Shown here: positions 35,431-60,835 of the stretch, one piece after another
Layout of the letters: each line of letters starts with the position of its first letter
Numbering within the stretch: position 1 is the first letter of the stretch
Assembly (NCBI GenBank): GCA_965140785.1
Contig: OZ223481.1
Span: 512,001 to 576,000, forward strand
Direction of reading: 5' to 3'
Length of the DNA: 64,000 nt
From: an uncultured Ruficoccus sp.
GTDB lineage: Bacteria; Verrucomicrobiota; Verrucomicrobiia; Opitutales; Cerasicoccaceae
Translations under genes and position numbers: made by a program
The notes under the pieces: generated by a model
The model's database searches: none
What the model saw: the letters and a program-made list of their open reading frames with translations, nothing else
What the model was told of the DNA's origin: nothing

Positions 35431-35505
35431 TGGTGCCCCCACCGAGACTCGAACTCGGATTAACGGTTTAGGAAACCGCGGTTCTATCCATTGAACTATG
35501 AGGAC
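35431..35505 (-). tRNA. tRNA-Arg (anticodon CCT)
   Basis: Reverse complement GTCCTCA TA GTTC AATGGATA GAAC C GCGGT TTCCTAA ACCGT TAAT CCGAG TTCGAGT CTCGG TGGGGGC ACCA folds as a cloverleaf with encoded CCA. Confidence 0.96.
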
Positions 35506-35506
35506 A
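35468..35506 (+). repeat. left att core (39 bp, overlapping the tRNA 5' half)
   Basis: TTAGGAAACCGCGGTTCTATCCATTGAACTATGAGGACA, identical to 44460-44498. Confidence 0.95.
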
Positions 35507-35595
35507 ACCTGTTTATATAAAACGACTTACGATCCTGATGTCTTTGCCGTAGAATTGACTTGTCACCGAGTTTTGTAACCCCTTAGATTCAAGGT

Positions 35596-36672
35596 ATGCC
35601 AAAGACGAAGCCAGCCGACGCAGGAAGCGGCCAGTTCGTGAAGGTTGCTGAGAATCTATATCGGTATCAGCCATCAGGGGGTTACTATGCTTTGCTGAAA
35701 CGAGGCGGCAAGCAAATCCGCCGTTCGCTCAAGACTCAGGATCGCAAGCTGGCCGAGCGTCGTCTGGCCGATCTGCGCGAAAAGGTGGACCGCATCGACA
35801 CCAGCAAGGGCAAGACCAAGATCGAGTTTATGGAGGCCGCCCAGCTTTGGCTCGACTCGATGCAGCCACATCTCAAGCCCAGTTCGTTTCTTCGGCGGCA
35901 AACGAGTATCAAGCAACTCAAGCGGCATTTTGGCCGCCACTCGGTGCGAGCGATTACCCGCAAGCTTTGTGATGAATGGGCGAAGGCACGCAGTCCGCAG
36001 ATTGCAGCTTCCACGTTCAACAACGAGCGCGAGACTCTGGTCTCGATTTTGGATTACGCTGTGCGCGAAGGCTACCTCCTGGATAACCCCGCTCGCGTGC
36101 TCAAGCGTCGTCGCCAGGGCAAAACGCAACTCTCCATTCCGACCCGTGAGCAATTCCTCACGCTGGTGAAAACCCTCCGCAAGTTGGACCCGCGCTATTG
36201 GGCTGCTGCCGATCTGGTGGAGCTGCTCGCCTACTCGGGCATGCGCAAAGGGGAGGCTAACGCCATGCAGTGGGAGGATGTCGATTTTGACCGGGGGCAA
36301 TTCGTTGTCACCGGTGGCGTGACCGGAACCAAGAATTTAGATGTTCGCCACGTCCCGCTATTTCCTATCCTACGTGAGTTCCTGGCACGCCTGAAAGCCG
36401 ACTATGGCGACATAACTCCAACAGGTGACATTCTCCCGACCAAGAACGCCAAAAAGGCAATGGACGCTGCATGCAAGCAAGCCGAGCTCCCGCACTTCAA
36501 TCACCATAGCCTCCGCCATTACTTCGTGAGCAACGCCATCGAAAAGGGTATCGATTTCAAGGTCATCGCCCAATGGATTGGCCACAAAGACGGCGGCGTA
36601 CTTGTCGCCCAAACCTACGGCCACCTCCGCGATACACATTCGTTTGAGATGGCTAAATTAATGGATTCATGA
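35596..36672 (+). CDS. tyrosine recombinase/integrase
   Basis: N-terminal arm-binding region (IRRSLKT), SGMRKGE (R), HSLRH (HxxR), IGH, TYGH (Y). Confidence 0.95.
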   Translation: MPKTKPADAGSGQFVKVAENLYRYQPSGGYYALLKRGGKQIRRSLKTQDRKLAERRLADLREKVDRIDTSKGKTKIEFMEAAQLWLDSMQPHLKPSSFLRRQTSIKQLKRHFGRHSVRAITRKLCDEWAKARSPQIAASTFNNERETLVSILDYAVREGYLLDNPARVLKRRRQGKTQLSIPTREQFLTLVKTLRKLDPRYWAAADLVELLAYSGMRKGEANAMQWEDVDFDRGQFVVTGGVTGTKNLDVRHVPLFPILREFLARLKADYGDITPTGDILPTKNAKKAMDAACKQAELPHFNHHSLRHYFVSNAIEKGIDFKVIAQWIGHKDGGVLVAQTYGHLRDTHSFEMAKLMDS

Positions 36673-37364
36673 CTCCCGAAGATGAATTAACCGGTGGAAT
36701 TATACGGACGCTTCGTCAAGGTCTAATAAACAATTTAGGTAATAGCTTGCTCAATGACGATGAAAACGGAATGCCTCCCGATTGGGCTATTCACCTTTTC
36801 AGATTATCTGGTGTTGAGAAGGCTATAAGCGTATTACCTCAATTCATTGAGGCAATCGAAGGCTGCGAAGGTAATATTACGGATATACGCGCGAGTGGGC
36901 AACGGGCGGGGACCATCTCTGCCTTGTTTTTAGTGTTGCGTCATTACCTCAAGGAATTCCCACGCTTACAAGAACAGCTCTCAAAAGAAACATCCCGAGG
37001 TGAGGCGGAAATATCTTTTATTACCAATAGTATACTAGCTGAATGCTCAGGGCAATTTACCAATGCCATAGACAATGGGGAAACTCAGTATCTATTGGAA
37101 TTCACGAAAGCGTTCAGTATGCATCTTGACAATTGCATTGGAGAGCTGGAATTCAAAACGACAACAGCAACTCCCATATACATCGCCCTATCCCTACACT
37201 GGCCAACTATTGAGAAGATAAAGAATTTGCCTAGCCTACACTCTTGGCTATGCAAACAAATAGGCTCGCAACTCGTCGGAGATGAAGAGCGAATCAAGAA
37301 ACTTTTACAGCGAGCCGGCGTGAAGTTATTCAAGCCAGGACGCCCCAAAAACAGGGACACATAA
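36669..37364 (+). CDS. hypothetical protein, possible C-terminal DNA-binding region
   Basis: ATGA overlap with the integrase stop; AT-rich ORF; basic tail ending KPGRPK. Confidence 0.7.
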   Translation: MTPEDELTGGIIRTLRQGLINNLGNSLLNDDENGMPPDWAIHLFRLSGVEKAISVLPQFIEAIEGCEGNITDIRASGQRAGTISALFLVLRHYLKEFPRLQEQLSKETSRGEAEISFITNSILAECSGQFTNAIDNGETQYLLEFTKAFSMHLDNCIGELEFKTTTATPIYIALSLHWPTIEKIKNLPSLHSWLCKQIGSQLVGDEERIKKLLQRAGVKLFKPGRPKNRDT

Positions 37365-37415
37365 TTTTTCGGCTGTCCCTGTTTTAGGGAGATAAACTTA
37401 GCTATAGTCTAGCTC

Positions 37416-37610
37416 ATGAAAGCAAGAGCTAGATTACCTAAGCCTCGCCTCGCTTACACGAGAGAAGAGGCAGCCGAAGCACTCGGCCTGTCGGCGGTCA
37501 GTATCGACCGATTAACCAAGCGTGGATTGTTGCGCCCGTCGCGGGCAACGAGGCGTCCGCTATACTCGATCAGCGAAATACAGCGTTTCCTCCAGGAAAC
37601 GCGTGTCTAG
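37416..37610 (+). CDS. excisionase-like HTH protein
   Basis: AYTREEAAEALGLSAVSIDRLTKRGLL, MerR/Xis-type winged HTH of 64 aa. Confidence 0.85.
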   Translation: MKARARLPKPRLAYTREEAAEALGLSAVSIDRLTKRGLLRPSRATRRPLYSISEIQRFLQETRV

Positions 37611-37621
37611 GAGGGTGCGTC

Positions 37622-38641
37622 ATGGAAAACGAACATTGTTTTTCTTTGCCCCGCCCAAGGCCAAACACAGTCTTGCTGCAAGGTGGAGCGCAGCCGAAGG
37701 CGAGCAATACCTTGCGGCAGGACTGTAAAATTGGCCAGGCGGCGGCAAGGGAGATAACGCCAGCGTGTGGAGTAGGCGAGGCAGACGGCGGGACACTATC
37801 TCCATTCTACCCGAAATCGTGGTTTCACCCCATCGGAGTACTCAAGATAAGAAAAGAACTGCTTGAGCGTCTACCAGATGTCTCAGGATGCCTTTTTCTG
37901 ACCTTTACAGTAGACCCTAAGTTGTTTTCAGGGCCAGATTCCGCTTATAGTTATTCGAGGGATAAATTAAGAAAAATATTTTATCGATTACGCAATGGAG
38001 TCAATTGGGAGGGTAAACATTATAAAATTAATTCACCCTATTTCGTTAAAACGGAATTTCATAATAATGGCTTTGCTCATTACCATATAGTATTTCTGAC
38101 AAAGCGCTTTTTACCCGGTAATTTATTAAATCACCTTTGGGGCTTTGGTCGTACCAATGTTAAACGGATTTCCAATAAAGAATTCAATTACCTGCTTAAA
38201 TATGTTTCTAAAGGCAATGATTTACCCAATTGGGTTAAAGCTAAAAACCGCATTAGAATAGTTCAGCCATCTAAAGGCTTTTATTTAAAGCTTAATGAAT
38301 TAGCCAAAGGGCAGGACAATAGTAATCCTGAGCCTAAAAAGCGCAATTGCAGCGCGACTATTGGCGAACGAATTAACCTTTGGCGGCATAAAGCCGTGTT
38401 TCGTAAAGGAAAAAGGGCTTGGACCATTAAATTGGCCAAACCCTTCTTTGAAATCCTTTCGGAATTAATTCTCCCACTCGCCCAGACTGGCAAGTACTTG
38501 GGCGGGTGGACAATGAAAATCCTTAATATAGGAGAAATATCAAAATGGCTGATTCAACCAGCAAAAACAAGAATGAAATCAATATCCCTGAAAGCGGGAT
38601 TTATGTTCGGGGGGTCGTGGTCTCCAAGTCCTGCCGACTGA
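37622..38641 (+). CDS. rolling-circle replication initiator (HUH endonuclease)
   Basis: Motif I FLTFT, motif II EFH..G.AHYHIV, motif III YLLKYVSK (two Tyr); true start uncertain. Confidence 0.88.
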   Translation: MENEHCFSLPRPRPNTVLLQGGAQPKASNTLRQDCKIGQAAAREITPACGVGEADGGTLSPFYPKSWFHPIGVLKIRKELLERLPDVSGCLFLTFTVDPKLFSGPDSAYSYSRDKLRKIFYRLRNGVNWEGKHYKINSPYFVKTEFHNNGFAHYHIVFLTKRFLPGNLLNHLWGFGRTNVKRISNKEFNYLLKYVSKGNDLPNWVKAKNRIRIVQPSKGFYLKLNELAKGQDNSNPEPKKRNCSATIGERINLWRHKAVFRKGKRAWTIKLAKPFFEILSELILPLAQTGKYLGGWTMKILNIGEISKWLIQPAKTRMKSISLKAGFMFGGSWSPSPAD

Positions 38642-38883
38642 TAAACAAAAAAGATGGGTCTGGTCGACTTGTGCTCATTAAGCACGAGCTGGCTACACAG
38701 CCAGGAATGGCGGTTTGGGAAGAGTTCTTCGACCCTGCCCGAAACCCTGGAATCAAAATCGAGGGTGAGCAGGTCTCGACATGGCCACAGTGTGAGGAAT
38801 TCCAGCCTGTGACCCTGCGTGCTGAACGCTTCCGAATCGTTAACGAGACGCTTCACGTCTCAAACGCTGAGGTGATCAGCTAA
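38545..38883 (+). CDS. small beta-rich protein, putative ssDNA-binding (OB-fold)
   Basis: 112 aa, beta-strand pattern (IYVRGVVVSK), purine-rich RBS (AGGAGA), sits right after rep as in ssDNA replicons. Confidence 0.55.
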   Translation: MADSTSKNKNEINIPESGIYVRGVVVSKSCRLINKKDGSGRLVLIKHELATQPGMAVWEEFFDPARNPGIKIEGEQVSTWPQCEEFQPVTLRAERFRIVNETLHVSNAEVIS

Positions 38884-38914
38884 TGAACACCCGGGCGAAG
38901 GTCCAGAAGGACTG

Positions 38915-38949
38915 GCGGGCAGTCGCGCGAGAGCGCGACTCCCGCTTTT
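38915..38949 (+). terminator. GC-rich hairpin with T-tract (terminator and/or part of the replication origin)
   Basis: GCGGG-C-AGTCGCGC-GAGA-GCGCGACT-CCCGC-TTTT. Confidence 0.6.
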
Positions 38950-39039
38950 CCTTGTTTACATGAACAATAACTGTCAACTGGTCAATTGGTCGGGGGATTT
39001 CGGGCTTCACTTAAAGGATGGATGTCGCATTCTTTGTGC

Positions 39040-41052
39040 ATGCCTGAAAGCACTCTAAGCCTTACGAGTTTTTTTACAATTCCGAGTACAGATCACTCTT
39101 CCGAGTTATTTACTGCTGCCGCGCAGACGCACATTGAGGCACTTTTAACCGAAAAGAAGGGAAAGGCATACATAAAATGCCAAGTACGTGGTAAAGAAGT
39201 AGTTGCAAAGCAAGAAGAGATTGTTCGGCAGTTTTGGATTTACCGTCTTGAGCATCATTATGGATACCCTCTCAAGCGCCTTGCTGTAGAGTATCCCGTT
39301 ACCTTTGGCCGAGATACCTCAAAACGAGCGGATATTGTTATATTTGATGCGGATAGGCCTACGGTGCCTTACATTATCGTTGAAGTCAAAAAGACCAAAG
39401 AAAGTGAAGGTAAGGAACAGCTGCGCTCTTATTGCCACGCGACTGGCGCACCATTAGCTATCTGGTCAAACGGGGAACAATTCGTTTCCTGGCACCGCAA
39501 GAATCCAAATTACTTCGTTGAAATCCCCGATGTCCCCGCTTGCAACCAGACGTTGGAGGAAGTTATCAACCAGCCTTGGGATATTACAACCTTGCTGGAA
39601 TTCGAGCAAGAGCGCGAAAAAGAAGGCTTAGCTGCTCGTAGCCTTAAAGACCTTATCAAGGGTATGGAGAATGAAGTTCTGGCCAATGCGGGAGTCGATG
39701 TCTTTGAGGAGGTTTTTAAGCTTATCTTCACTAAGCTTTACGATGAGTTGTCTGTTTATCGAAAGAGCTACAAGCATCTGCGCTTCCGGAATACCGACAC
39801 TGCCGCCAAGGTCAAGGAACGCATTCAGCAGCTATTTGAGGAGGCGAATAAAAAATGGCATGGTGTGTTTCCAGAGGGTGAACGCATCCGGCTAACGCCA
39901 GATCACTTGCAAGTTTGCGTGGGTTCACTGGAGCAATACAAGCTGTTCAATAGCAATTTGGACATTATTGACGATGCGTTTGAATACTTGGTCAGTAAGT
40001 CTTCTAAAGGCGAGAAGGGACAGTACTTTACGCCTCGTTGGGTGATCGACATGTGCGTAAAAATGCTCAATCCAACCAAGGATGAGTATTTGATAGATAC
40101 TGCGTGCGGCTCCGCTGGATTCACCATGCATGCGGCCTTTAAGGTATGGGGCGATATCTGTGATGAAATCGGAGTCGACAGGCACGAGCTTTTTTCTGCC
40201 GCTGATAAACCTCAGCCATGCAAAGACTACATCAAAGACAAGGTTTATGGGATCGATTTTGATGAAAAATCGGTCCGAGTCGCACGCTGCCTGAATATGA
40301 TCGCGGGCGATGGCGAAACAAATGTGCTCCATCTTAATACGCTCGATTATAACCGTTGGGACGAAACCGTCAAAGATGAGGACTGGACTGATACCTATAG
40401 CACAGGCTGGCGTGGTTTGAAAAATCTGCTTGCCCGTAAAAAGGACTACCGTGACCTGCGCTTTGATGTGCTGATGGCTAACCCACCTTTTGCGGGAGAT
40501 ATTAAACAGCCTGACATGCTCAGCCCGTACGAGCTCGCTCACAAGGCAAATGGCAAAGCTGAAAGTAAGGTTGGGCGTGACCTGCTCTTTATTGAGCGCA
40601 ATCTAGATTTCCTCAAGCCTGGCGGTCGTATGGCCGTGGTTCTTCCTCAAGGCCGCTTTAACAACGCCAGCGACAAGCGGGTCCGTGAGTATATTGCCGA
40701 ACATTGCCGCATTCTGGCTGTGGTTGGATTGGAGGGTAATACCTTTAAGCCTCATACGGGAACCAAAACGAGCGTTCTCTTTGTCCAAAAGTGGAACGAT
40801 GACTCAGAGGTTGGGCCGCTCTGTCCACACGTCGATGATTACAATATCTTCTTTGCCACTCAGCAGCTTCCCGCCAAAGATACCCGAGGAGAACGCATTA
40901 TCGCCCGCGATACCGACGGCAAACTTTTACGCGATAAGCACGGCCACTGGATTGTCCAGCATGACCTTTACAATCATGATGGACTCACACAAGATGGCAT
41001 CGCTGAGGCTTTTCAGGAATTTGCCGCTAAGGAGCGATTGTCTTTTTTTTGA
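39040..41052 (+). CDS. fused restriction endonuclease (HsdR-N-like) / N6-adenine methyltransferase, Type IIG/IIB-like
   Basis: EEIVRQ, RADIV..IVEVKK nuclease motif; GQYFTPR, DTACGSAGF, NPPF. Confidence 0.9.
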   Translation: MPESTLSLTSFFTIPSTDHSSELFTAAAQTHIEALLTEKKGKAYIKCQVRGKEVVAKQEEIVRQFWIYRLEHHYGYPLKRLAVEYPVTFGRDTSKRADIVIFDADRPTVPYIIVEVKKTKESEGKEQLRSYCHATGAPLAIWSNGEQFVSWHRKNPNYFVEIPDVPACNQTLEEVINQPWDITTLLEFEQEREKEGLAARSLKDLIKGMENEVLANAGVDVFEEVFKLIFTKLYDELSVYRKSYKHLRFRNTDTAAKVKERIQQLFEEANKKWHGVFPEGERIRLTPDHLQVCVGSLEQYKLFNSNLDIIDDAFEYLVSKSSKGEKGQYFTPRWVIDMCVKMLNPTKDEYLIDTACGSAGFTMHAAFKVWGDICDEIGVDRHELFSAADKPQPCKDYIKDKVYGIDFDEKSVRVARCLNMIAGDGETNVLHLNTLDYNRWDETVKDEDWTDTYSTGWRGLKNLLARKKDYRDLRFDVLMANPPFAGDIKQPDMLSPYELAHKANGKAESKVGRDLLFIERNLDFLKPGGRMAVVLPQGRFNNASDKRVREYIAEHCRILAVVGLEGNTFKPHTGTKTSVLFVQKWNDDSEVGPLCPHVDDYNIFFATQQLPAKDTRGERIIARDTDGKLLRDKHGHWIVQHDLYNHDGLTQDGIAEAFQEFAAKERLSFF

Positions 41053-42499
41053 CTAGCCCTTTCAACCAAGCTCGTTACGAGCAATTGTTGGAAGGGCTAG
41101 AGGCAATTGAAATTTCGCGAGAACATTTGATGGATGATAATGGCTATTTTCGTCTAGATGCTGAATTTTATAAAAAAGCTTATGAAAAAGTCATAATGCT
41201 AGTTAAGTCATTTGGAGCAAAGCAATTAAAGGAAATATCTCCTACAATCATTCACCCTACAGAAATCAAGCGTGAGTATGAAGAAGAGGGCGGAACATGG
41301 TTTTTCCGGACACAGAATCTAAGACCTTTATCAATCGAAAAGAACAATGATGTTTTTGTTTCTACGAGTGATGCGGAAAAGCTAAATAAAAATATAATTA
41401 GAAATGGAGATGTTCTTGTGACGCGTACAGGAGCTAATTTTGGTGATTGCGCATATTTTAATTTGGACGAATCCCCAATCGCAAGCTCTCATGTATTAAT
41501 TATACGAAACAGGTCTCTTTCTCAGCCTTTTCTATCTGTTTTCTTAAATTCAAGATATGGTCGTCTCCAAATTAATAAAGGCGCCTATGGGGGGGTCCAA
41601 CCCGAGGTGTCTCCATACTACTTGAGAAACATATGGATACCTGAATTTACTAGGGAGCTCATCCATGAAATTGACGGTAATATTTCGAAAGCACGTGTTA
41701 AAAAGGAGCAAAGTCAAGAGTTGGCTGCTCAGGCGGAGGCAACGCTTTTAGATGAATTAGGCTTGGCTAACTGGACACCGCCCGAGCCATTGTCATACAC
41801 CCGCTCCGCCAAAGAAGTTTTCACCGCAGAGCGACTGGATGCAGAGCATTTCAAGCCTAAATACGATGACCTTATTTCTAGGCTTGCTTCAAATAGTCAA
41901 GAGGTTGTGTCTTTGGGAAGCATAGTCCAACCCATACGAAATGGTTTTGACTTTCGGGAATATGAAGAGTCTGGAACTCCCTATATTCGAGTGGGCGATA
42001 TACATCATGGGCGAATAGATATAGTAGAGGCCAAGAGAATCAGGTTGAACTTTAGTTCTATTAAGAAAAATATAAAACTAATGCATGGCGATGTTCTTTT
42101 TACCCGCAAGGGTAGCTATGGAAATGCCGCAGCGGTTCGTGGAGATGAAGATGGGGCAGTTATTAGTAGCGAAATTATGCTACTAGACTTAATGGAAAGG
42201 GAAGAAAGGTTATGCCTCAATTTTTGGCTACATATTTAAATAGTGTAGCTGGTGCACTTCAATCAGAAAAATGGGCACATGGGGTCGCCTTTTACAGCAT
42301 ATCTCAAGCAGACCTTTCACGTTTTATAATTCCAATACCAGAATGGACCGTACAACAAGAAGTTGCTAAAAGGCTTGAATTGTCAGAAACGGTACGTCGA
42401 GATGCCATTGTGCTATTAGACAAAGCAAAAAGCGCAGTGGAAATCGCCATTGAAGATGGTGAAGTTGCGGCAATTGAATACTTGAAAGGAGATCGGTAA
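41049..42499 (+). pseudogene. restriction-modification specificity subunit (HsdS-like), frameshifted near 42185
   Basis: Two TRD-like repeats (RLDAEF/RLDAEH, GDVL.TR.G..G). One extra A near 42185 would join it to ORF 42212-42499. Confidence 0.8.
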
Positions 42500-43302
42500 T
42501 GCCTGCCGGTAATCAAGAAAATCTCATGCAATGGCTCGACCAATCAACTGTCGATTATTTTACCTGTTTTGTAAAAGCATGGATTCCTTTTAATGCCTGG
42601 TATCGCTATAACTACCCTAGCATCCAGCAAGAGAGGCAGATTCTTGATGCGATAAAAAGTGATGGTAACCGAATGCGCTCAAGGTTTATCGCTCGGATTG
42701 ATCAAGATGGCACTGAGGGTGAAGAGTTACGTCATTGGATAGCCATACTGCATAAGCGCTTGGCAAATGACCCATTAAATTCACCGAAAATGGGATTGGT
42801 GTCCTTCGAGAATGTATTTACCGGTTATAATACTAAAAATAGTTCCGTGATTAAAATAAAACACTGGTTCTACAAAGTTGAAAAAATCACTTCCCCTCAA
42901 AAAAAATACGTGGCCACAGTTACAAGTAATAGAGGCCGTGAAGACTTTAGGTTGGAACAGGAAGGAGACTGGGATTTGGAGAGATTTTCAAATGATGCTC
43001 GTTTAGTGGCATATAACAAAAACGATCAAGCATACTTGATTGATAGATATAAGGAAATAAACCCCAAGGTATATGTTAGTCTCCTGTGTGATAATGAAGA
43101 ATGCTGTGTGATTCTAGGAGAGTATAAATTTACCAGCGACAAGGAAGCGCTCTTTGCAGGGTTAATAGAAATTCTCTATTGCCTGCGGAATATGCTTTTT
43201 CACGGAGAACTGGTGCCCGATAAAACAACAAACTCAACTTATGAGCCAGCATACCATATTTTACGTAGGCTCATGCGCTACATTGTAGGCCATCAAGACT
43301 AA
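42499..43302 (+). CDS. HEPN-superfamily protein (putative RNase effector)
   Basis: N-terminal FVKAWIPFNAWY and C-terminal LYCLRNMLFHG (Rx4H); TAATG coupling to the S subunit. Confidence 0.7.
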   Translation: MPAGNQENLMQWLDQSTVDYFTCFVKAWIPFNAWYRYNYPSIQQERQILDAIKSDGNRMRSRFIARIDQDGTEGEELRHWIAILHKRLANDPLNSPKMGLVSFENVFTGYNTKNSSVIKIKHWFYKVEKITSPQKKYVATVTSNRGREDFRLEQEGDWDLERFSNDARLVAYNKNDQAYLIDRYKEINPKVYVSLLCDNEECCVILGEYKFTSDKEALFAGLIEILYCLRNMLFHGELVPDKTTNSTYEPAYHILRRLMRYIVGHQD

Positions 43303-43321
43303 CCCCAGCGTCAATACGACA

Positions 43322-44230
43322 ATGCCAGTACCTACTTACCAAGAAATGCTTCACCCCATTCTGACTTTAGCTGCTCAGGAACCTATCAAACGCAGCACGG
43401 CATCTGAGGCTATGGTGGAGCATTTTAATCTCAGCGATGCAGAAGCCCAGGAAGTACTTCCTAGCGGGAGTGCAACCTATGTTCAAAACCGCACGGGTTG
43501 GGCGATGACATTTCTCACTAAAGCGTCACTCATTGAAAAAGTCGCCAAGGCGACCTATGCCGCTACTGACTTAGGCCATGAATTCCTGAGAAGGTATCCC
43601 AATGGCTTTACTGAAAAAGACCTGCACCAAATCGACGGGTATCAAGAAGCTTGGCAATCCAGTAGAAAAGCAAAAAGAAAAACTTACACTCAGGAAAGCG
43701 AAGAGGAAACACCCGATGAGATTGTCGACAACGCGATGACGACGTTGTTTGCCAAGTTGAAGTCAGAAGTTCTGGCGCAGACTAAGACAATGGAGCCATT
43801 GCGATTTGAAAAACTCGTTTTGGATTTGATGCTGAAAATGGGCTATGGCGGTTCACGCGAGAATGCAGGCCGTTTGACTCAAGCTACGGGTGATGGTGGT
43901 GTCGATGGGCTCATCAATGAGGATAAGCTTGGCCTTGATGTCATATACCTCCAAGCAAAGCGGTATACCGAAACTGTTGTTGGCCGACCTAAGATTCAAG
44001 AGTTTGTAGGTGCTCTAGCTGGAAAGCAGGCAAATAAGGGCGTCTTTATTACAACGAGCACCTTCACTCAGGGAGCGATAGATTTTGCGAATGCCGTGCA
44101 GCAAAAAATCATACTTATCGATGGTGAAAAATTGGCAGCGCTAATGATCGAACATAACCTAGGCGTGTCTACAGAGCGAACTTACTCTATCAAGCGCATA
44201 GACTCAGATTATTTTGAGGTAGATGTGTAG
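43322..44230 (+). CDS. mrr: Mrr-family type IV restriction endonuclease
   Basis: Mrr_N (PTYQEML, NRTGWA..FL.KA) and Mrr_cat (GDGGVDG, YLQAKRY, GVFITTS.F, IDG..LA). Confidence 0.93.
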   Translation: MPVPTYQEMLHPILTLAAQEPIKRSTASEAMVEHFNLSDAEAQEVLPSGSATYVQNRTGWAMTFLTKASLIEKVAKATYAATDLGHEFLRRYPNGFTEKDLHQIDGYQEAWQSSRKAKRKTYTQESEEETPDEIVDNAMTTLFAKLKSEVLAQTKTMEPLRFEKLVLDLMLKMGYGGSRENAGRLTQATGDGGVDGLINEDKLGLDVIYLQAKRYTETVVGRPKIQEFVGALAGKQANKGVFITTSTFTQGAIDFANAVQQKIILIDGEKLAALMIEHNLGVSTERTYSIKRIDSDYFEVDV

Positions 44231-44240
44231 GCCGCTGTAA

Positions 44241-44332
44241 GTTTTGTAACCCTGACGGGTTACAAAACTGCTGATTCTGCGAACCGTTTACCTTTTACTC
44301 GTGGTTCTTTTTGCACCCTGATTTTGTAACCC
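44241..44332. promoter_or_regulatory. putative integrase arm-type sites
   Basis: GTTTTGTAACCC-TGAC-GGGTTACAAAAC (44241-44268) and TTTTGTAACCC (44322-44332); the same 12-mer occurs at 35570-35581. Confidence 0.7.
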
Positions 44333-44459
44333 GAGGTGAAAATTTGGGCGTTTTCGGGATAATCCGAGATTATCAGCGAATTCCAGAAGTCACTTTTTTT
44401 GAGCGACTTGATGACTCGGGATTATTTGTGCAAATTGCTGAATATCAGTGCTTTTTGCG

Positions 44460-44498
44460 TTAGGAAACCGCGGTTCTATCCATTGAACTATGAGGACA
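44460..44498 (+). repeat. right att core: duplicated 5' half of tRNA-Arg
   Basis: Identical to 35468-35506; covers tRNA nt 1 to the end of the anticodon loop. Confidence 0.95.
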
Positions 44499-44533
44499 GT
44501 TGAAAATCAGTGTTTTACGTAATTTTGACCTGC

Positions 44534-45514
44534 CTACGCAAACTGTACCGCATTGAGAGTTAGTCTGAGCGGGTTAATGATGTGATTTAGGGTTAGGTTG
44601 TAGAGGGTGTCAAGGCTTGGGCGCAAGGAGGGCGTAGCCCGAGTGTAGCCCATGCCTTGGAAGTTGATGTCGAAGGGGGTTGGTGCGGTTTCTTTGGCTG
44701 CAAACTCGAGCGGCGTGAGCAGTCCGAGTGAACGGTGCGGGCGGATGTTGTTGTATTTCCACCTCCAGTCCTCAATGACCACGCGTGCCTCGGTGAGCGT
44801 ATAAAACCACTCGCGGTTGAGGCACTCATCGCGGAGTCTGCCGTTGAAGGATTCTATGTAGCCGTTCTGCCAGGGACTGCCCGGCTCAATGTAGAGCGTC
44901 TTGATCTCCTCGTCCGCGTACCATTTACGCAGGCTCTTCTCGATAAACTCGCTGCCGTTGTCGCTACGGATGTGCTCGGGGCTGCCGTAGGCACTGATCA
45001 ACTCGCTCATGACGGCTCGCACCTTGGCGGCGTTGAGGTGGCGATCGACGTGGATGCACAGGCACTCACGGGTGTACTCATCGAGTACCGTGAGCATGCG
45101 GATTGATCCGCCCTTAGCCGTACGGTCGGCCACGAAGTCGCAGGTCCACACGTGGTTGCGATGAGTAGCCTTTGTCGGTAAGCCCGTCGAGGGGCCGCGC
45201 CGACGCTGACGAGGCTTCTTAGTCGGACACTTCAGCCCCATCTCCTGGCGCAGGCGCTGCACCAGCCGCTTACCTACGTCCCAACCATCGCGCTTGAGTA
45301 GATGAGTGATTTTCGGGTAACCCAGCTCGGGATGCGCTTCGCTCTTGCGACGCAAAGCCCCACGTAACTTTGCCAACCAGGGCGTAGTCTCCTTCGCCTG
45401 ATAGCCGAAGGTACTGCGATGCAACCCAAAGTGACGGCAGGCCGCCCGCGCTGAACATCTGCCCTGCGACACCAGAGTTTGCGCCATCTCGCGCTTGTGT
45501 GCAGGGCTTACCAT
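44534..45514 (-). CDS. IS3 transposase OrfB (DDE)
   Basis: WTCDF, DEYTRE, RSDNGSEF, PWQNGYIESFNGRLRDE, YNNIRPH. Confidence 0.95.
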   Translation of the reverse strand: MVSPAHKREMAQTLVSQGRCSARAACRHFGLHRSTFGYQAKETTPWLAKLRGALRRKSEAHPELGYPKITHLLKRDGWDVGKRLVQRLRQEMGLKCPTKKPRQRRRGPSTGLPTKATHRNHVWTCDFVADRTAKGGSIRMLTVLDEYTRECLCIHVDRHLNAAKVRAVMSELISAYGSPEHIRSDNGSEFIEKSLRKWYADEEIKTLYIEPGSPWQNGYIESFNGRLRDECLNREWFYTLTEARVVIEDWRWKYNNIRPHRSLGLLTPLEFAAKETAPTPFDINFQGMGYTRATPSLRPSLDTLYNLTLNHIINPLRLTLNAVQFA

Positions 45515-45774
45515 TTTTTTTCGAGCGCCTCCTTCAGCAGCTCCTTACCAAGTATCTCGTCCGCCAGCATACGCTTCAGCCGAGCGTTCTCCTTTTGCAG
45601 TTCCTTCAGTTGCTTGGCCTGATCGACTTCCAGCATCCCAAGCTCCCGCTTCCAGCGGTGGAACGTCTGCTCGCTGATCCCTGCCTCGCGGCAGACATCC
45701 ACGATCGCTCTGCCAGCATCAGCGGCGCGTAAAATGCGGATTTTTTGCTCTGTACTGTATCGCTTGCCTTTCAT
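45508..45774 (-). CDS. IS3 transposase OrfA (HTH + leucine zipper)
   Basis: VCREAGISEQTFHRWK, LKELQKENARLKR. Confidence 0.95.
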   Translation of the reverse strand: MKGKRYSTEQKIRILRAADAGRAIVDVCREAGISEQTFHRWKRELGMLEVDQAKQLKELQKENARLKRMLADEILGKELLKEALEKKW

Positions 45775-45837
45775 CGTCTGAGTCCTTTCTAAGCACTCAG
45801 ACTAACTTTGCAAGTGGCACAGTTTAAGTGGACACGG

Positions 45838-46320
45838 TCACTTGCTCTTGCCCCGTTTGAAAAGCCAATTACAAAAAAAGCCAAACGCAACACACGCCCC
45901 AAGGATCATTCGTCCCGACCTGAAATCGGTATTTGTCACGCCCGAGACGAAGGCAACAACAAGCCCGAAAACAATCAGGCCGATTGGAGCCGCGATGATC
46001 GCGACCCCCGATTTCTTAGTCCAGTGCCAATCCTCGGGAGTCGAGCTATCAGTACCGACCTTCGCATTCTTACCCGGTTTTACCTGCCGGTTCGAGATCT
46101 GTTTGGGGGCAGGGGGGGGGGTGAGGCTTGCGGAGGTTTCGGGGGCATTTTCATGTCGCCGAGATCCACGACATCACGGATAGCTCGCCAATCCGTCATC
46201 CCTTCCTTCCAGCACAGGTCGTAGAATCCCAACGTGCCCTCGGAAAGCCGTTGACGAATGTTCTTCTCGTCAATGGGGCCACTCTGCTCACCGCCTCTGA
46301 TGATGTAGTAACTAGCCATC
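45838..46320 (-). pseudogene. GYF-domain (DUF4339-like) membrane protein, frameshifted in a G10 tract and abutting the IS
   Basis: YYI..G.QSGP...LCWKEGMTDW GYF_2 pattern, Pro-rich linker; the shifted frame continues into two TM helices and stops at the IS terminal TGA. Confidence 0.7.
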
Positions 46321-46593
46321 GGACAACCAACCTCCAGCGAAGGCATTCAACATATAAATCAGCCAGACGACCAATAAGACGATTGCGGCCACCTTGTTGG
46401 ATACTCCCCAACGCTTTAGTTGCCCGCTTTCATCGGTCTTGTTGAAATAGACCGGCCCCGTCAGTACAATAATGCACACAATCAGGACCCCCGGGAATAG
46501 TCCCGCAGTAAGCAGATTTACCAAAAAGAGTATGTTGCATGAGTTGGAGCGCCGAAGCCTTTCATCGAAAACGTGCGAAGCTACTGCTTTCAA
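46312..46593 (-). pseudogene. C-terminal fragment of a membrane protein
   Basis: Hydrophobic helices (VLTGPVYF...NKVAAIVLL); no convincing start; stop overlaps the GYF gene start. Confidence 0.45.
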
Positions 46594-47226
46594 CTGCTGA
46601 GATTGCGAGTGTTGGGGATATTATCACGGCAATCTGGCGATCGACCAACCAAAGGAAACCCGGTAGTCAAGAGGTACGCGAACTGAGCCGAGTAGCCCGT
46701 TAGTCTGGTGTGTCGTTTGGCACGATCAGCCCAACTGACTGGTTCTATTTTTAAACCAGACAAAAGGACTCGTATGAAGGTGAATCTAGGTGTTCTTATT
46801 ACATGGATGAGTTGGTTCGCAGTATGGCAAAAAATATTTAGCAATTGGCGATTTGATCCTCGCGCCCGACCGCAAGCTTTACGATCCCGCTTTGCGACCG
46901 TGGAGCTCCACGGGAGAGCCCGCTTCTGGAGGGGAGGGGGGCGTCGTGCATACTGCGACTCAATCCCGTTGAAGTGCAAGCTACCGAAGGTATTCACTTC
47001 TGCTGGGCTAAACTACAGGACCGTCCAGGAACAGCGCGGACTTTGGGAGGCGTGCTTGCTCTCCAAGGCAAAGAAATCTCTTTTACAGATGAGGCCGGCC
47101 GTGGAAGAGGCGCTGTTGCGTTACGATTTGCGTGGAGCCCCGCTTGTTGTGTAATTTTGATACACAACTCGAAGGTGACCGGGTTTGTCTGGGGTAACTC
47201 AAATAATAAGAACAAAGACTGGCGAT

Positions 47227-48549
47227 ATGAGAAGCACATCAAGTTGGTTTCATGAAGCCACTTATGGTCTCTTTATTCATTGGGGGCCTTACGCCGTTTA
47301 CGGACGCGGAGAGCAGGTGCTCATGCGCGAGCTCCTAGATCAGCATTCGTACGCGCGTGACGCCTGCCAGTGGCGGCCATTGGCTTTCAATGCCGACGAC
47401 TGGGCTCGCATCGCGGTACAGGGCGGGTTTCGCTACGCGGTCCTGACGGCGCGCCATCACGACGGATTTTGCCTCTGGGACACGGCCACAACGGATTATT
47501 CGAGCGCGCGCCAGAGCGCTAGTCGTGATTTCGTGGCCGAGTATGTCGATGCGTTCCGTCATGCCGGACTGCGAGTCGGGCTCTATTATTCCTGGTGCGA
47601 CTTCCGCATCCCCGCCTTGTTCGACGGTCCAGATCAGAATCCGTCGGGCTGGGAACGGTTACGCGCCTATGTTCACGCGCAAGTACGGGAACTGATGAGC
47701 GCTTACGGAAAGATCGATATCCTGTGGTTCGATGGCGCTTGGCCCGGTTCGAGAGAGGACTGGAAGAGCCGTGAATTGGTCAAGGAGGTTCGGAGACTGC
47801 AGCCTGGAATATTGATTAACAATCGGCTCGGATTCCAGAATTCGGCCAGCGTCCTGCTCGATGAGCATACTGTCAATCAGAGCAACGATGGGGACTTTGG
47901 TACCCCCGAACGGGAAATCGTGGCTGTACCGGGAAGGCTTTGGGAGTCCTGTCAGGTGAGCACTTGGCGATTGTGGGGCTACTCGCCAGGCGAACGATGG
48001 TGGTCGGCGGATGTGCTCCTGGACCGACTGTTGGAGGCATCAAGCCAAGGCGGCAATCTCTTGCTCAATGTCGGCCCAGATGCCGACGGAAACATTCCGG
48101 AAGCCTTTTGCGAACGCAGCCAAGCCATCGGAGAATGGCTTGCGGTTCATGGGGAGGCCGTTTACGGTGTCGAAGCGGTGGACGCTGGGGAAGCAGTTCT
48201 GTTTGGCTGGCAAACACGGCGGGGCCGCATGCTCTATCTGATTATTCGGTTCTGGCCTGGCCCGACACTGCGTTTCCACGGTTTGATGACACCAGTCCGG
48301 GATGTGGTTTTCCTGACCACAGGCCAGCCGTTGTCGTGGCGGCAGGACAAAGATGATTGCGGCCTGCGTATTGACGGACTACCGGAATGCCAACCGAACA
48401 CATTTTTCCCCGTTATTCGGGTTGAGTTGGACGGCGATCCTAGCACTTGGCCTACTTATCAACCCGGGCTCTGGACCGGCGACCCGGGCCGCCTGAAAGC
48501 CTGGGCGGCCAAGCGGGGGCCTGGAGGTATGGCCGACGGCTCTTGGTGA
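47227..48549 (+). CDS. alpha-L-fucosidase family (GH29)
   Basis: GLFIHWG, TARHHDGF.LW, GLYYS, WFDG nucleophile, LLLNVGP. Confidence 0.92.
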   Translation: MRSTSSWFHEATYGLFIHWGPYAVYGRGEQVLMRELLDQHSYARDACQWRPLAFNADDWARIAVQGGFRYAVLTARHHDGFCLWDTATTDYSSARQSASRDFVAEYVDAFRHAGLRVGLYYSWCDFRIPALFDGPDQNPSGWERLRAYVHAQVRELMSAYGKIDILWFDGAWPGSREDWKSRELVKEVRRLQPGILINNRLGFQNSASVLLDEHTVNQSNDGDFGTPEREIVAVPGRLWESCQVSTWRLWGYSPGERWWSADVLLDRLLEASSQGGNLLLNVGPDADGNIPEAFCERSQAIGEWLAVHGEAVYGVEAVDAGEAVLFGWQTRRGRMLYLIIRFWPGPTLRFHGLMTPVRDVVFLTTGQPLSWRQDKDDCGLRIDGLPECQPNTFFPVIRVELDGDPSTWPTYQPGLWTGDPGRLKAWAAKRGPGGMADGSW

Positions 48550-48571
48550 TAGGGCCTGGGGGCTCCTTCCC

Positions 48572-50356: not shown

Positions 50357-50434
50357 GGCATGTATGTCTCAAATATTGAATTAATATTCAAATAAAAAGT
50401 AGTAGAACATTCTAGAAACTGTTAATATGCAACC

Positions 50435-50452
50435 TTGTTAATGCATTAACAA
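50435..50452. promoter_or_regulatory. perfect 18-bp palindrome in the divergent promoter region
   Basis: TTGTTAATGCATTAACAA, 8 nt before the ATG at 50461. Confidence 0.55.
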
Positions 50453-50460
50453 ATATCACC

Positions 50461-52164: not shown

Positions 52165-52207
52165 GCAGTGCCCAATCTGCTCTTTGTATCCCTAATCGAT
52201 TCTCCCA

Positions 52208-52921
52208 ATGCCCCTACAAATTACCCTATCTGCGGTCAGTCGTTTTCGGTCACACCGAGTCCGCCATCTAGGATTCTCGTTAATAGAATTATTGGCGGTG
52301 ATGGTGATCATAGCATTGCTCTGCCCGCTTATATTCTCGGTAATTGGCAAAGTCCGTCAGCTGTCGCAGGCAACTTCCTGCGCCAGCAATTTGCGGCAGT
52401 GTGGAGTGGCCCTCAATTTGTACGCGACAAATAATGGGGGCTACTTCCCCGCTGCATTGGAGGCTGATTTGCGTTCCTGGGCCGTGGAGCTGAGCCGAGG
52501 TGGCTATCTGCCCCGGTTGGAAGAGGATATGCCATCTGTTGCGGTCTGCCCCAGTGGAGCTTCACAAGGGGATTACAAGGATTTTCGCCGGGTTTATGGG
52601 ATGTGGTGTGGCAATGCGGATACAGGAATGTATCAGTTCAATCGAGATGTTCCCTGTTATCGCCTATCCCTGGAGAAGCTGGAGGCCAACCGTATCATCT
52701 TGGCGGACTCGGGACGATGTGAGTATGCGGAAGCTTGGGACCAGTCCTATTTCATTCAAGGCGGCAAGGGAAAGCGTGAGAGTAATTCCTCCAACAAAGT
52801 CATCAAGCTGGCCCATAATGGCAAAGCAAATGTTGTTTTTGCCGATGGACACCTTGAGGCGGTCGATGCGGAGTATCTAGTGCGGGATGGCCGCTACAAC
52901 TGGACCGAGCACGACGAGTAA
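52208..52921 (+). CDS. prepilin-type N-terminal cleavage protein with H-X9-DG motif
   Basis: GFSLIELLAVMVII, CASNLRQ, HNGKANVVFADGH. Confidence 0.92.
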   Translation: MPLQITLSAVSRFRSHRVRHLGFSLIELLAVMVIIALLCPLIFSVIGKVRQLSQATSCASNLRQCGVALNLYATNNGGYFPAALEADLRSWAVELSRGGYLPRLEEDMPSVAVCPSGASQGDYKDFRRVYGMWCGNADTGMYQFNRDVPCYRLSLEKLEANRIILADSGRCEYAEAWDQSYFIQGGKGKRESNSSNKVIKLAHNGKANVVFADGHLEAVDAEYLVRDGRYNWTEHDE

Positions 52922-52972
52922 TCATTCAGATCGCTTTCAGTGCGGTCGTAACCGAGCACAAAACACACGATT

Positions 52973-55792: not shown

Positions 55793-55864
55793 CAATGATG
55801 GTTCAAACAGACCAATGACGGCTCGTGTATGGTCATCGTCTGCTTGCCTTGGCGGAATATAAAG

Positions 55865-56950: not shown

Positions 56951-57001
56951 ACCAGTTGATTTCGATTGTTCCCCAACTGGAATATGCCACTCATCGAGAT
57001 C

Positions 57002-57943: not shown

Positions 57944-58085
57944 CTTCCCAAATAAACAGTGCGGACGCAAATAAGTCGTCGCCTCATTCCGTTCGCTGAA
58001 GAGCAAAGCGAGATCATTAGCCATGATTTTCCTTATCCGTCATGAATGACAACTGTACCCGCGTTCTGGCAGAAATCATCCGATC

Positions 58086-59351: not shown

Positions 59352-59778
59352 GGTGACATCGGGGCACTTCGGTTAAAGCTGGAGGCTGATTTCGTCCGTG
59401 AGTGCCGGGAATCCAAGCCATTGTCCCAGGTGATGGAGTGGACTCGGTAGTCCGCCAGGGCCACGATGGCGGCCCTTGGCACTCACGGTGGTGTCCCTGC
59501 TGGGCCACGGAACCTCTCGCCCGTAGCGGCTCTTGTGTCAAAATGGACCAGTTGTCTCGATTGACCTGGTAATCAGGCTTTGATGGTGGCGCTTACAAGC
59601 TTTCCTAACGTCGCATTGGCTGCATCAATTTCTAGTTCGTCGGGTCGCTATGAGAGAGTAAAATATCTGCGGGGTTGGCTGGGGATTTGAGGCCAAGGCA
59701 TCAGAAAGATAATTTATGCCCAACATTGATAACTCCATCTAAAGACTCAGCCCATGGTTTTCTGGTATTATCTAGGTC

Positions 59779-60795: not shown

Positions 60796-60835
60796 GTGTA
60801 CCTGCAGTATGAACTCAATCCTTACTTAGTGAAAG

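What the first reader, a model, noticed from the sequence alone, without database searches (positions are those of the whole stretch)
35431..44498. Integration replaces the 5' half of the tRNA rather than the 3' end
Seen: the tRNA is on the minus strand, and the duplicated 39 bp run from tRNA nt 1 to the end of the anticodon loop (..TTCCTAA). The element lies upstream of the intact copy. Known: tRNA-targeting tyrosine integrases usually restore the 3' portion and sit downstream. Inference: crossover is in the 7-nt anticodon loop, and the intact tRNA is cut off from its native promoter. Expression of the AGG-decoding tRNA then depends on element sequence (AT-rich TTATATAAAC on the minus strand at ~35511-35520), which could give the element control over a rare-codon tRNA.
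Basis: partly seen in the sequence, partly recalled or inferred. Interest (0 to 1): 0.8.

Follow-up and report, generated by a model that had tools for sequence, protein, structure and literature searches.

The report
Island replacing a tRNA's front half
A 9-kb mobile island sits upstream of the cell's only AGG-reading arginine tRNA gene and supplies that gene's first half and probably its promoter; this reversed way of inserting is rare but already known, and here it proves to be the rule for a whole group of integrases in Verrucomicrobiota.

Summary
tRNA-Arg(CCT) lies at 35431-35505 (-). An exact 39-nt repeat (35468-35506 and 44460-44498) covers tRNA nt -1 to 38, ending at the last base of the anticodon loop. 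The genome holds no 3' fragment of this tRNA.

Between the repeats is a low-GC 9-kb integrative element: an intact tyrosine integrase, a rolling-circle Rep module and restriction-modification/Mrr cargo. Exact GGGTTACAAAA arm sites lie at both ends.

The reversed polarity is a family trait. Two paralogous integrases in the same genome sit the same way at tRNA-Met and tRNA-Leu. In 64 of 72 assessable loci of relatives, a divergent tRNA lies within 250 bp of the integrase start. Twenty-five of those 64 show a 5' repeat, and 16 of the 25 end exactly at the anticodon-loop end.

The partial copy does not keep the native promoter. An IS3-family copy lies 27 bp upstream of it, followed by a second 21-kb island with its own integrase, a third 5' fragment and a remnant of a second element.

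The conserved upstream motif is TAAGTC at -24..-19, not TTATATAAAC. Control of the tRNA by the element is untested.

Reversed tRNA islands are in print (Zhao & Williams 2002), and this scan noted them in other genomes. Verdict: a new member of a known kind, of moderate interest.

The parts
35431..35505 (-). Intact tRNA-Arg(CCT), the only CCT copy found in the assembly. It has T5 (a T5.G68 wobble) where all 22 relatives' tRNA genes listed have C5.
35468..35506 (-). Left copy of the 39-nt direct repeat (tRNA nt -1..38), the integrase-proximal attachment junction. By inference its 5' half is element-derived.
35506..35595 (.). 90-bp spacer between the tRNA start and the integrase start. It holds TAAGTC at 35524-35529 (-24..-19 from the tRNA), AT-rich TTATATAAAC at 35511-35520, an exact GGGTTACAAAA arm-type site at 35571-35581 (-), a degenerate second site (GGTGACAAG, about 35558-35567) and a plus-strand TTGTCA-18-TAGATT promoter-like site (35560-35589) facing the integrase gene.
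35596..36672 (+). Tyrosine integrase (358 aa), full length, with the catalytic R217, K246, H304, R307, H330 and Y341 conserved. It is transcribed away from the tRNA.
36669..37364 (+). ORF of 231 aa with no family match. Weak relatives in 2 related loci.
37622..38641 (+). Rolling-circle-type replication initiator (PF23343 REP_ORF2-G2P). It co-occurs with this integrase type in 17 related loci.
38545..38883 (+). Small ORF (112 aa) overlapping the end of Rep. Conserved next to Rep in 15 related loci. Function unknown.
38986..41052 (+). Cargo: Type I-like DNA methyltransferase with an HsdR_N-like N-terminal domain.
41049..42499 (+). Cargo: Type I specificity subunit. The window reads it as two ORFs (41049-42239 and 42212-42499). 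Contigs of two sequencing runs carry an extra A after 42184 that would join them.
42499..43302 (+). Cargo: ORF of 267 aa with no family match.
43322..44230 (+). Cargo: Mrr-type (Type IV, methyl-directed) restriction endonuclease.
44242..44332 (.). Integrase-distal arm with three exact GGGTTACAAAA sites (44242-44252 -, 44257-44267 +, 44322-44332 -). This block is conserved in the homologous element of another genus (G007).
44460..44498 (-). Right copy of the 39-nt repeat, the displaced 5' tRNA fragment. It is followed by the element's CGCAAAAA arm, the same as in G007.
44526..45840 (-). IS3-family insertion sequence (transposase 44534-45514). There are 10 other copies of at least 1175 nt at 98.3% identity or more in the genome. 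It lies 27 bp upstream of the displaced fragment.
45841..64000 (.). Second island ('Ex', GC 0.50-0.57) carrying fucosidase, AraC, BNR, DHDPS and GFO genes. It runs on past the window to its own integrase (G000:C10:576328-577485, -) and the third 5' tRNA fragment (577610-577643).

Best explanation
Window 35507-44459, plus one repeat copy, is an integrated 9-kb element of a Verrucomicrobiota-wide group of small integrative elements. The core is a tyrosine integrase, a rolling-circle Rep and a small partner ORF. The cargo here is a Type I-like methyltransferase, a specificity subunit and Mrr.

The element's attachment site carries the FIRST 38 nt of tRNA-Arg(CCT) next to the integrase gene, preceded by about 90 bp that hold arm-type integrase sites and a promoter-like motif. 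Recombination with the chromosomal tRNA gene in the 7-nt anticodon loop has two results. The gene's original 5' half is left at the far end of the element (44460-44498). A working gene is rebuilt from the element's 5' half and the host's 3' half (35431-35505). The rebuilt gene must then be transcribed from element DNA.

Shown: the repeat and its register, the intact tRNA, the intact integrase, arm sites at both ends, foreign composition, and the same architecture in paralogues and relatives.

Inferred: the exact cleavage positions, which copy is element-derived, that the spacer holds the tRNA promoter, and that the element is still mobile.

The locus is a stack. The order of events is inferred as an older element of the same type (now a remnant beyond the window), then a 21-kb island with an unrelated integrase, then this element. 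All three entered on the 5' side.
For: Anatomy of the element:
- The repeat, tRNA and register are shown.
- GC is 0.38-0.51 inside the element (0.54-0.57 over the integrase gene at its left end), against about 0.60-0.65 in the flanks.
- The integrase matches PF00589 at E=1.4e-18, and its catalytic residues are invariant in an alignment of 5 relatives.
- The window holds 4 exact GGGTTACAAAA sites, all within about 260 bp of the two repeats. About 0.03 would be expected for an 11-mer (my arithmetic).
- The distal arm is homologous to that of the G007 element.
- Homology to same-genus genome G002 runs through the downstream flank and the tRNA and stops 6 nt upstream of the tRNA.

Same architecture elsewhere in this genome:
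- A 55%-identical integrase lies 106 bp upstream of, and divergent from, tRNA-Met(CAT). tRNA nt 1-40 are repeated 6.1 kb away.
- A 51%-identical integrase lies 90 bp upstream of tRNA-Leu(CAA). tRNA nt 1-42 are repeated 30 kb away.

Relatives:
- At least 7 of 41 genomes of the order, counting this one, carry extra 5'-half copies of tRNA-Arg(CCT).
- G007 has a 78%-identical integrase and an 8.6-kb element built the same way.
- Of 80 loci fetched with the integrase alignment (the best 80 of 188 confirmed), 72 were assessable. Of these, 64 have a divergent tRNA within 250 bp of the integrase start, 2 have a co-directional tRNA and 6 have none.
- 25 of the 64 show a 5' repeat beyond the integrase within the DNA held, and 22 of the 25 are 100% identical. 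The repeat ends exactly at the anticodon-loop end in 16, at +1 to +3 in 7 and at -4 or -5 in 2.

Promoter:
- TAA[GC]T lies in -34..-14 in 31 of 64 spacers (shuffles: mean 4.0, maximum 9).
- GG[GT]T[GT]AC lies in -75..-40 in 45 of 64 (shuffle mean 0.3).
Against: - No empty site could be found. Synteny upstream of this tRNA differs in all four same-genus genomes.
- No excised or circular form was seen. The public runs are kept as k=31 contigs that break at the repeats.
- No sigma-70 consensus promoter was found on the tRNA strand in the spacer. The conserved motifs could be recombination sites rather than a promoter.
- The related loci are kin, so the 64/72 and motif counts overstate independence.
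- Both copies of the repeat carry T5, while all 22 relatives' tRNA genes listed and the older remnant carry C5. A simple 'element half versus host half' model does not predict that identity. It needs gene conversion or circulation within one T5 population.
- 39 of the 64 loci showed no 5' repeat in the DNA held. In 19 of them fewer than 3 kb were available beyond the integrase; in 11 a full 10 kb was searched.
Confidence: 0.82

Rival explanations
1. The element is as described, but strand exchange happens at the 5' edge of the tRNA (about nt 1), not in the anticodon loop. The intact gene would then keep its own body and only the upstream region would be swapped. The 38-nt tRNA piece at the far end would be the element's own spare copy.
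For: The repeat also has a sharp boundary at the tRNA's first base (-1 here; nt 1 to -3 in relatives). Both copies are identical (T5) in this genome, and 22 of 25 related pairs are 100% identical. So the repeats themselves do not say which side was exchanged.
Against: An element that exchanges at nt 1 has no need to carry 38 nt of tRNA. The repeat's inner end tracks the anticodon loop in tRNAs of different length and identity: exactly in 16 of 25 and within 3 nt in 23 of 25. A conventional island in sister genome G001 duplicates nt 32-75 of the same tRNA, so it also starts at the loop.
Confidence: 0.07
2. The tRNA is not transcribed from the 90-bp spacer. It is transcribed from a promoter further inside the element (antisense to the integrase gene) or by read-through. 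The conserved spacer motifs would then serve recombination only.
For: No sigma-70-type site was found on the tRNA strand. Reading the listing by eye, native tRNA genes of this genome mostly have a TTGAC-like hexamer 45-55 nt upstream, which the three element-borne spacers lack.
Against: TAA[GC]T keeps a fixed distance from the tRNA's first base across tRNAs of 11 anticodon types. By my reading it resembles the TAACTT-like -10 elements of native tRNA genes. The spacer length is constrained: 53-128 bp in the 64 divergent loci.
Confidence: 0.15
3. The arrangement is an assembly artefact caused by the 39-nt repeat and the 92%-identical second copy of the integrase 5' end.
For: Contigs of the public runs stop at both repeats and at the edge of the 462-nt duplicated stretch. 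They therefore cannot confirm the joins.
Against: The same layout recurs at two other tRNAs in this genome and in 64 of 72 assessable assemblies. These include a single-contig genome (G007) and an isolate genome, Pelagicoccus mobilis (L085). 39 nt is shorter than ordinary reads, so assemblers can span it.
Confidence: 0.02

Closest known systems
[quoted passage not shown]
   Same: The element lies on the 5' side of the tRNA gene and carries the gene's 5' portion, so it must also provide for transcription. I saw the title only, in the reference lists of PMC6563490 and PMC1635311. The content is recalled; the paper itself is not held.
   Different: Here the trait is shared by a large group of integrases in one phylum and by 11 anticodon types of tRNA target. 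The integrase sits at a fixed distance, divergent from the rebuilt tRNA. Whether the 2002 element belongs to this group could not be checked.
Conventional anticodon-loop tRNA islands (class I sublocation of Williams 2002, NAR 30:866; recalled, text not held)
   Same: Tyrosine integrase, a crossover region at the anticodon loop and a repeat made of half a tRNA. Sister genome G001 has such an island in the same tRNA, with nt 32-75 repeated 15 kb downstream.
   Different: Opposite polarity: the 5' half is repeated, the element is upstream, and the promoter is replaced along with the half-gene.
[quoted passage not shown]
   Same: 5'-side integration, described there as 'considerably less frequent' than 3'-side (passage read).
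   Different: Those are archaeal viruses and plasmids with other integrase types. This is a bacterial element with a rolling-circle Rep core.
Integrase-less cassettes stacked upstream of tRNA-Arg, noted earlier in this scan (e1-2329977, e1-3981649)
   Same: The first 39 nt of a tRNA-Arg are repeated, units stack on the 5' side, and a matching integrase lies directly upstream of the tRNA in relatives.
   Different: This copy carries its own intact integrase and a replication module. The stack here mixes two unrelated integrase types and an IS.

Membership tests
tRNA-gene-targeting integrative element with tyrosine integrase | Tyrosine recombinase with the catalytic R..K..HxxR..H..Y residues | tested here: met
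   PF00589 at E=1.4e-18. R217, K246, H304, R307, H330 and Y341 are invariant in the 5-sequence alignment A1.
tRNA-gene-targeting integrative element with tyrosine integrase | Bounded by direct repeats made of tRNA sequence, one of them inside an intact tRNA gene | tested here: met
   39-nt exact repeat. The tRNA is called by ARAGORN and by Rfam at 58.8 bits.
tRNA-gene-targeting integrative element with tyrosine integrase | Foreign DNA: deviant composition and absence from the site in relatives | tested here: inconclusive
   GC 0.38-0.51 (0.54-0.57 over the integrase gene) against about 0.60-0.65 in the flanks. Homology to G002 stops 6 nt upstream of the tRNA. No clean empty site exists, because the upstream content differs in all four same-genus genomes.
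tRNA-gene-targeting integrative element with tyrosine integrase | Arm-type integrase binding sites on both arms | tested here: met
   4 exact GGGTTACAAAA sites, all at the element's two ends. The motif recurs in 45 of 64 relatives' spacers. The distal arm block is conserved with G007. Binding itself was not tested.
tRNA-gene-targeting integrative element with tyrosine integrase | Excision and integration observed | not testable with these tools
   The runs are kept only as k=31 contigs that end at the repeats.
Reverse-orientation (5'-side) tRNA island | The displaced fragment is the 5' part, lies upstream of the intact gene in the same orientation, and there is no 3' fragment | tested here: met
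   No match to nt 39-75 elsewhere in the genome at up to 5 mismatches.
Reverse-orientation (5'-side) tRNA island | The element supplies the tRNA's promoter | tested here: inconclusive
   All DNA upstream of the tRNA is element DNA. TAA[GC]T is conserved at a fixed distance in 31 of 64 spacers, against a shuffle mean of 4.0. No sigma-70 consensus was found and no RNA run was available.
Anticodon-loop sublocation of tRNA integration | The identity block ends at the anticodon loop, with the anticodon stem arms flanking the overlap | tested here: met
   The repeat ends at nt 38, the last loop base. Among relatives it ends exactly at the loop end in 16 of 25 and within 3 nt in 23 of 25. The cleavage positions themselves were not tested.
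Integron (IntI plus attC cassettes) | An integron-type integrase | tested here: not met
   TIGR02249 integron integrase scores 44 bits against a cut-off of 265. The repeats are tRNA halves. The stacking resembles integron behaviour only by analogy.
Filamentous-phage-like or rolling-circle replicon | HUH-type Rep plus virion or morphogenesis genes | tested here: inconclusive
   Rep matches PF23343 at E=6.8e-13. No structural or assembly gene family was found among the element's ORFs.

The most novel reading that the evidence does not exclude
The element has made itself hard to lose by holding the only working promoter and 5' half of the cell's single AGG-decoding tRNA. Precise excision would rejoin the tRNA body to the displaced 5' half, whose upstream region is cut by an IS3 copy 27 bp away. 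Loss of the island would then silence or weaken tRNA-Arg(CCT). In addition, the integrase's arm sites lie inside the 90-bp divergent promoter region, so integrase occupancy could tune both its own gene and the tRNA. More broadly, this integrase group would be a promoter-swapping system that stacks units on the 5' side of rare-codon tRNA-Arg genes. 38 of 64 related loci target Arg tRNAs.
Probability: 0.15. Interest if true: 0.65.

Novelty: new member of a known kind. Interest (0 to 1): 0.4.

Why it matters
Island finders and textbook accounts assume that tRNA-targeting elements restore the 3' end of the gene. A whole integrase group that does the reverse has three consequences.
- Islands upstream of tRNA genes will be missed or given wrong boundaries unless 5' fragments are searched for.
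- In these bacteria several tRNA genes, here Arg-CCT, Met-CAT and Leu-CAA in one genome, are probably transcribed from mobile-element promoters.
- Small defence and metabolic cassettes can pile up at such sites.

The group also offers integrases with predictable, tRNA-defined target sites of the opposite polarity, which may be useful for genome engineering in Verrucomicrobiota. The single case in this window adds little on its own. The family-wide regularity is the useful part.

Tried and rejected
- Empty site. The tRNA and its flank were searched in 41 genomes of the order, and upstream regions of all four same-genus genomes were fetched. No genome shares the upstream flank, so no clean empty site was found.
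- Expression. No RNA holder was listed for the stretch.
- Excision and assembly. Contigs of three runs were laid on 32000-48000. They end at the repeats and bridge neither form. The one long joint (35933 to 44528) fits the remnant copy beside an IS beyond the window, not an excision product. Run X3 laid nothing.
- Sigma-70 consensus scan of 35380-35750. Nothing was found on the tRNA strand; there was one site on the integrase strand.
- Idea that the integrase avoids the codon read by its target tRNA. The integrase here has 0 AGG and 0 AGA among 32 Arg codons. Across relatives, however, Arg(CCT)-targeting integrases use AGG at 39 of 586 Arg codons, no less than the others. Rejected.
- GGGTTACAAAA with 2 mismatches is not enriched in the window: 11 matches against 11.2 expected. 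Only the 4 exact sites are informative.
- Literature. Zhao & Williams 2002 and Williams 2002 are not held. Searches listed no paper describing an integrase group with systematic 5' polarity or one in Verrucomicrobiota. This holds only for the open-access library searched.
- The shared T5 in both repeat copies, against C5 in the relatives and in the remnant, could not be explained.
- Similarity between the upstream region of the displaced fragment and the G013 island's promoter-side end: none seen by eye.


Full report
**1.

ARAGORN finds one tRNA in the window, tRNA-Arg(CCT) at 35431-35505 on the minus strand. Rfam's tRNA model scores it 58.8 bits and does not score the partial copy.

The repeat finder gives an exact 39-nt direct repeat at 35468-35506 and 44460-44498. 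Read on the tRNA strand, the repeat is one base upstream plus tRNA nt 1-38. It ends with TTCCTAA, the seven bases of the anticodon loop. The intact gene then continues ACCGTTAATCC, and the partial copy continues CGCAAAAAGCA.

The whole assembly (4.36 Mb, 50 contigs, 90.85% complete) has no other match to nt 39-75 at up to five mismatches. It has no second tRNA-Arg(CCT).

**2. What lies between the repeats**

GC falls to 0.38-0.51 over most of the element (0.54-0.57 over the integrase gene), against about 0.60-0.65 in the flanks. All genes are on the plus strand:

| Coordinates | Gene |
|---|---|
| 35596-36672 | Tyrosine integrase, PF00589 at E=1.4e-18 |
| 36669-37364 | ORF of 231 aa, no family |
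| 37622-38641 | Rolling-circle-type Rep, PF23343 |
| 38545-38883 | Small overlapping ORF of 112 aa |
| 38986-41052 | Type I-like methyltransferase with an HsdR_N-like domain |
| 41049-42499 | Specificity subunit |
| 42499-43302 | ORF of 267 aa, no family |
| 43322-44230 | Mrr-type restriction enzyme |

The integrase is full length and its catalytic residues are invariant in an alignment with four relatives.

The 11-mer GGGTTACAAAA occurs exactly four times in the 64-kb window. One site is in the 90-bp spacer between the integrase and the tRNA. Three are 130-260 bp inside the far end. These are the expected positions of arm-type integrase sites. The far-end block is conserved in the homologous element of another genus.

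Rep and the 112-aa ORF recur beside this integrase type in 17 and 15 related loci. The core is therefore integrase plus a replication module, and the restriction-modification genes and Mrr are cargo.

**3. The locus is a stack, not a single insertion**

The partial tRNA copy is not next to native DNA. An IS3-family element (44526-45840) begins 27 bp upstream of it. There are ten other copies of at least 1175 nt in the genome.

Beyond the IS lies about 20 kb of intermediate GC (0.50-0.57) with fucosidase, AraC, BNR, DHDPS and GFO genes. This ends outside the window in a second tyrosine integrase (G000:C10:576328-577485), only 25% identical to the first.

About 125 bp upstream of that integrase is a third copy of the tRNA's first 31 nt (577610-577643). 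It is joined to a 462-nt stretch that is 92% identical to the first element's spacer and integrase 5' end, then cut off by IS sequence.

The simplest order of events is this. An element of the first type entered. The 21-kb island then entered the rebuilt tRNA. The present 9-kb element came last. Each time the entry was on the 5' side.

The second integrase is 63% identical to one in G013. That one also sits about 130 bp downstream of a displaced 5' fragment (nt 1-34) of tRNA-Arg(CCT), 37.7 kb from the intact gene.

More distant relatives of that integrase (29-39% identity) behave conventionally. In 21 of 24 loci, a tRNA-like match to the 3' part lies in the opposite orientation, mostly about 100-135 bp upstream of the integrase start. 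The remaining 3 loci have none.

**4. The reversed polarity is a family trait**

In the same genome two paralogous integrases show the same layout:
- A 55%-identical integrase lies 106 bp upstream of, and divergent from, tRNA-Met(CAT). tRNA nt 1-40 are repeated 6.1 kb away.
- A 51%-identical integrase lies 90 bp upstream of tRNA-Leu(CAA). tRNA nt 1-42 are repeated 30 kb away.

In 41 genomes of the order, at least seven (G000, G007, G013, G016, G032, G036, G039) carry extra copies of the 5' half of tRNA-Arg(CCT). G001, G020 and G030 carry 3'-type fragments.

Integrase homologues or their remnants sit directly upstream of that tRNA in G007 (78%, full length), G016 (62%, full length), G003, G036, G012 and G014.

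A scan of one genome per species with the integrase alignment confirmed 188 relatives, and the best 80 were kept. By record title, all but four are Verrucomicrobiota; two more carry uninformative titles. The counts are:
- 72 of the 80 loci were assessable. The other 8 lacked the integrase N-terminus or upstream DNA.
- 64 of the 72 have a divergent tRNA within 250 bp of the integrase start. Two have a co-directional tRNA and six have none.
- The targets are Arg-TCT (20), Arg-CCT (17), Met (11), Thr (7), Ser (3), Lys (3), and Arg-CCG, Asn and Pro (1 each).
- 25 of the 64 have a 5' repeat beyond the integrase within the DNA held, giving elements of 1.7-11 kb. 22 of the 25 repeats are 100% identical.
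- The repeat ends exactly at the last base of the anticodon loop in 16, one to three bases later in 7, and four or five bases earlier in 2.
- The other 39 showed no repeat. In 19 of them fewer than 3 kb were available beyond the integrase.

These loci are relatives of one another, so the counts are not independent trials. They do rule out an assembly artefact, and they show that the window's case is typical of its group.

**5. Where the exchange happens**

Nothing here maps cleavage. The inference rests on the inner end of the repeat, which tracks the anticodon loop whatever the tRNA.

A conventional island in sister genome G001 repeats nt 32-75 of the same tRNA. It begins where these repeats end.

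An exchange at the tRNA's first base cannot be excluded, but it would leave the carried 38 nt without a purpose.

One observation fits neither model neatly. Both copies in this genome have T at position 5 (a T.G wobble with G68). All 22 relatives' tRNA genes listed, and the older remnant, have C. Gene conversion between the copies, or circulation of both islands within a T5 population, would explain it. I could not test either.

**6. The promoter question**

All DNA upstream of the intact tRNA is element DNA, and the integrase gene starts 90 bp away on the other strand.

Across the 64 spacers, aligned at the tRNA's first base, two features recur:
- Two tandem GGGTTACAA-like sites lie at about -75 to -50. 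The motif GG[GT]T[GT]AC is present in 45 of 64 spacers, against a shuffle mean of 0.3.
- TAA[GC]T lies near -24 in 31 of 64 spacers, against a shuffle mean of 4.0 and a maximum of 9.

In the window the second motif is TAAGTC at 35524-35529.

By my reading, native tRNA genes of this genome have TTGAC-like and TAACTT-like elements, and TAAGTC resembles the latter. This is a reading by eye, not a test.

The consensus scan found no sigma-70 site on the tRNA strand. It found one on the integrase strand that overlaps an arm-type site.

A spacer promoter is therefore likely but unproven.

**7. Rare codon and control**

AGG makes up 3.5% of Arg codons in 1,167 long ORFs of the genome, and 11% in the element's genes. 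The tRNA is single-copy in the assembly. The premise of a rare-codon tRNA is therefore sound.

Nothing shows that the element regulates the tRNA. The integrase here has no AGG or AGA, but its relatives do.

One consequence is worth testing. Precise excision would rejoin the tRNA body to a 5' half whose upstream region is cut by an IS 27 bp away. Loss of the element might then impair the tRNA.

**8. What is known**

[quoted passage not shown] It cites Zhao & Williams 2002 and several archaeal cases.

The Islander method text accepts a 5' fragment upstream as a legitimate configuration (passages read).

The 2002 paper and Williams 2002 are not held. What I say of their content is recalled.

This scan had already noted the same polarity in two other genomes, as integrase-less cassettes upstream of tRNA-Arg. 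G039 here, with a 1.8-kb unit and no integrase hit, looks like those.

My six paper searches listed nothing on a Verrucomicrobiota integrase group with systematic 5' polarity. That is a statement about an open-access library only.

**9. Verdict**

The details about the native promoter and the AT-rich box are corrected, and the control hypothesis is untested.

This is a new member of a known, rare kind. The added value is the family-wide regularity and the three-layer stack at this tRNA.

Noticed in passing
window 42184 (specificity subunit, 41049-42499): The specificity gene reads as two ORFs in the window. Contigs of two sequencing runs carry an extra A after 42184. The downstream frame is open from 42170, so the frameshift is probably an assembly error or a strain variant rather than a broken gene.
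   Followed up: partly
window 35501 and 44493 (tRNA position 5): Both copies of the tRNA's 5' half have T5. All 22 relatives' tRNA genes listed, and the older remnant at G000:C10:577610-577643, have C5. The identity of the two copies is not predicted by a simple element-half versus host-half model.
   Followed up: partly
window 44526-45840: IS3-family insertion sequence with 10 other copies of at least 1175 nt at 98.3% identity or more, plus several partial copies, across the assembly. One partial copy also truncates the remnant integrase beyond the window.
   Followed up: partly
window 45841-64000 and on to G000:C10:577485: A 21-kb island with carbohydrate-use genes and its own tyrosine integrase. 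That integrase and its 63%-identical G013 relative sit next to a displaced 5' tRNA fragment. More distant relatives (29-39% identity) have a 3'-part tRNA match in the opposite orientation upstream in 21 of 24 loci. Polarity may therefore have switched within this second family too.
   Followed up: partly
G000:C22:12097-18347 and G000:C25:46941-77020: Two further elements of the same integrase type in this genome rebuild tRNA-Met(CAT) and tRNA-Leu(CAA) from the 5' side. They are 6.1 kb and 30 kb long. Their cargo was not examined.
   Followed up: partly
L025 (G001:C1:1159500-1178500): A sister species has a conventional island in the same tRNA, with nt 32-75 repeated 15 kb downstream. That island carries an Mrr homologue 49% identical to the one in this element.
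   Followed up: no
G000:C10:576891-576966: ARAGORN calls a tRNA-Arg(TCG), with the anticodon at an odd position 36, inside the second island's integrase ORF. This is probably a false call.
   Followed up: no
L018 (G039:C2:1219000-1224000): Two copies of the tRNA-Arg(CCT) 5' half lie 1.8 kb apart with no integrase hit between them. This resembles the integrase-less cassettes noted earlier in the scan.
   Followed up: no
L007 (G002:C124), about 90 nt upstream of its tRNA-Arg(CCT): A stretch identical to the last 24 nt of this genome's tRNA-Leu(CAA), with no full tRNA called there. It is possibly a 3'-type attachment scar of another island.
   Followed up: no
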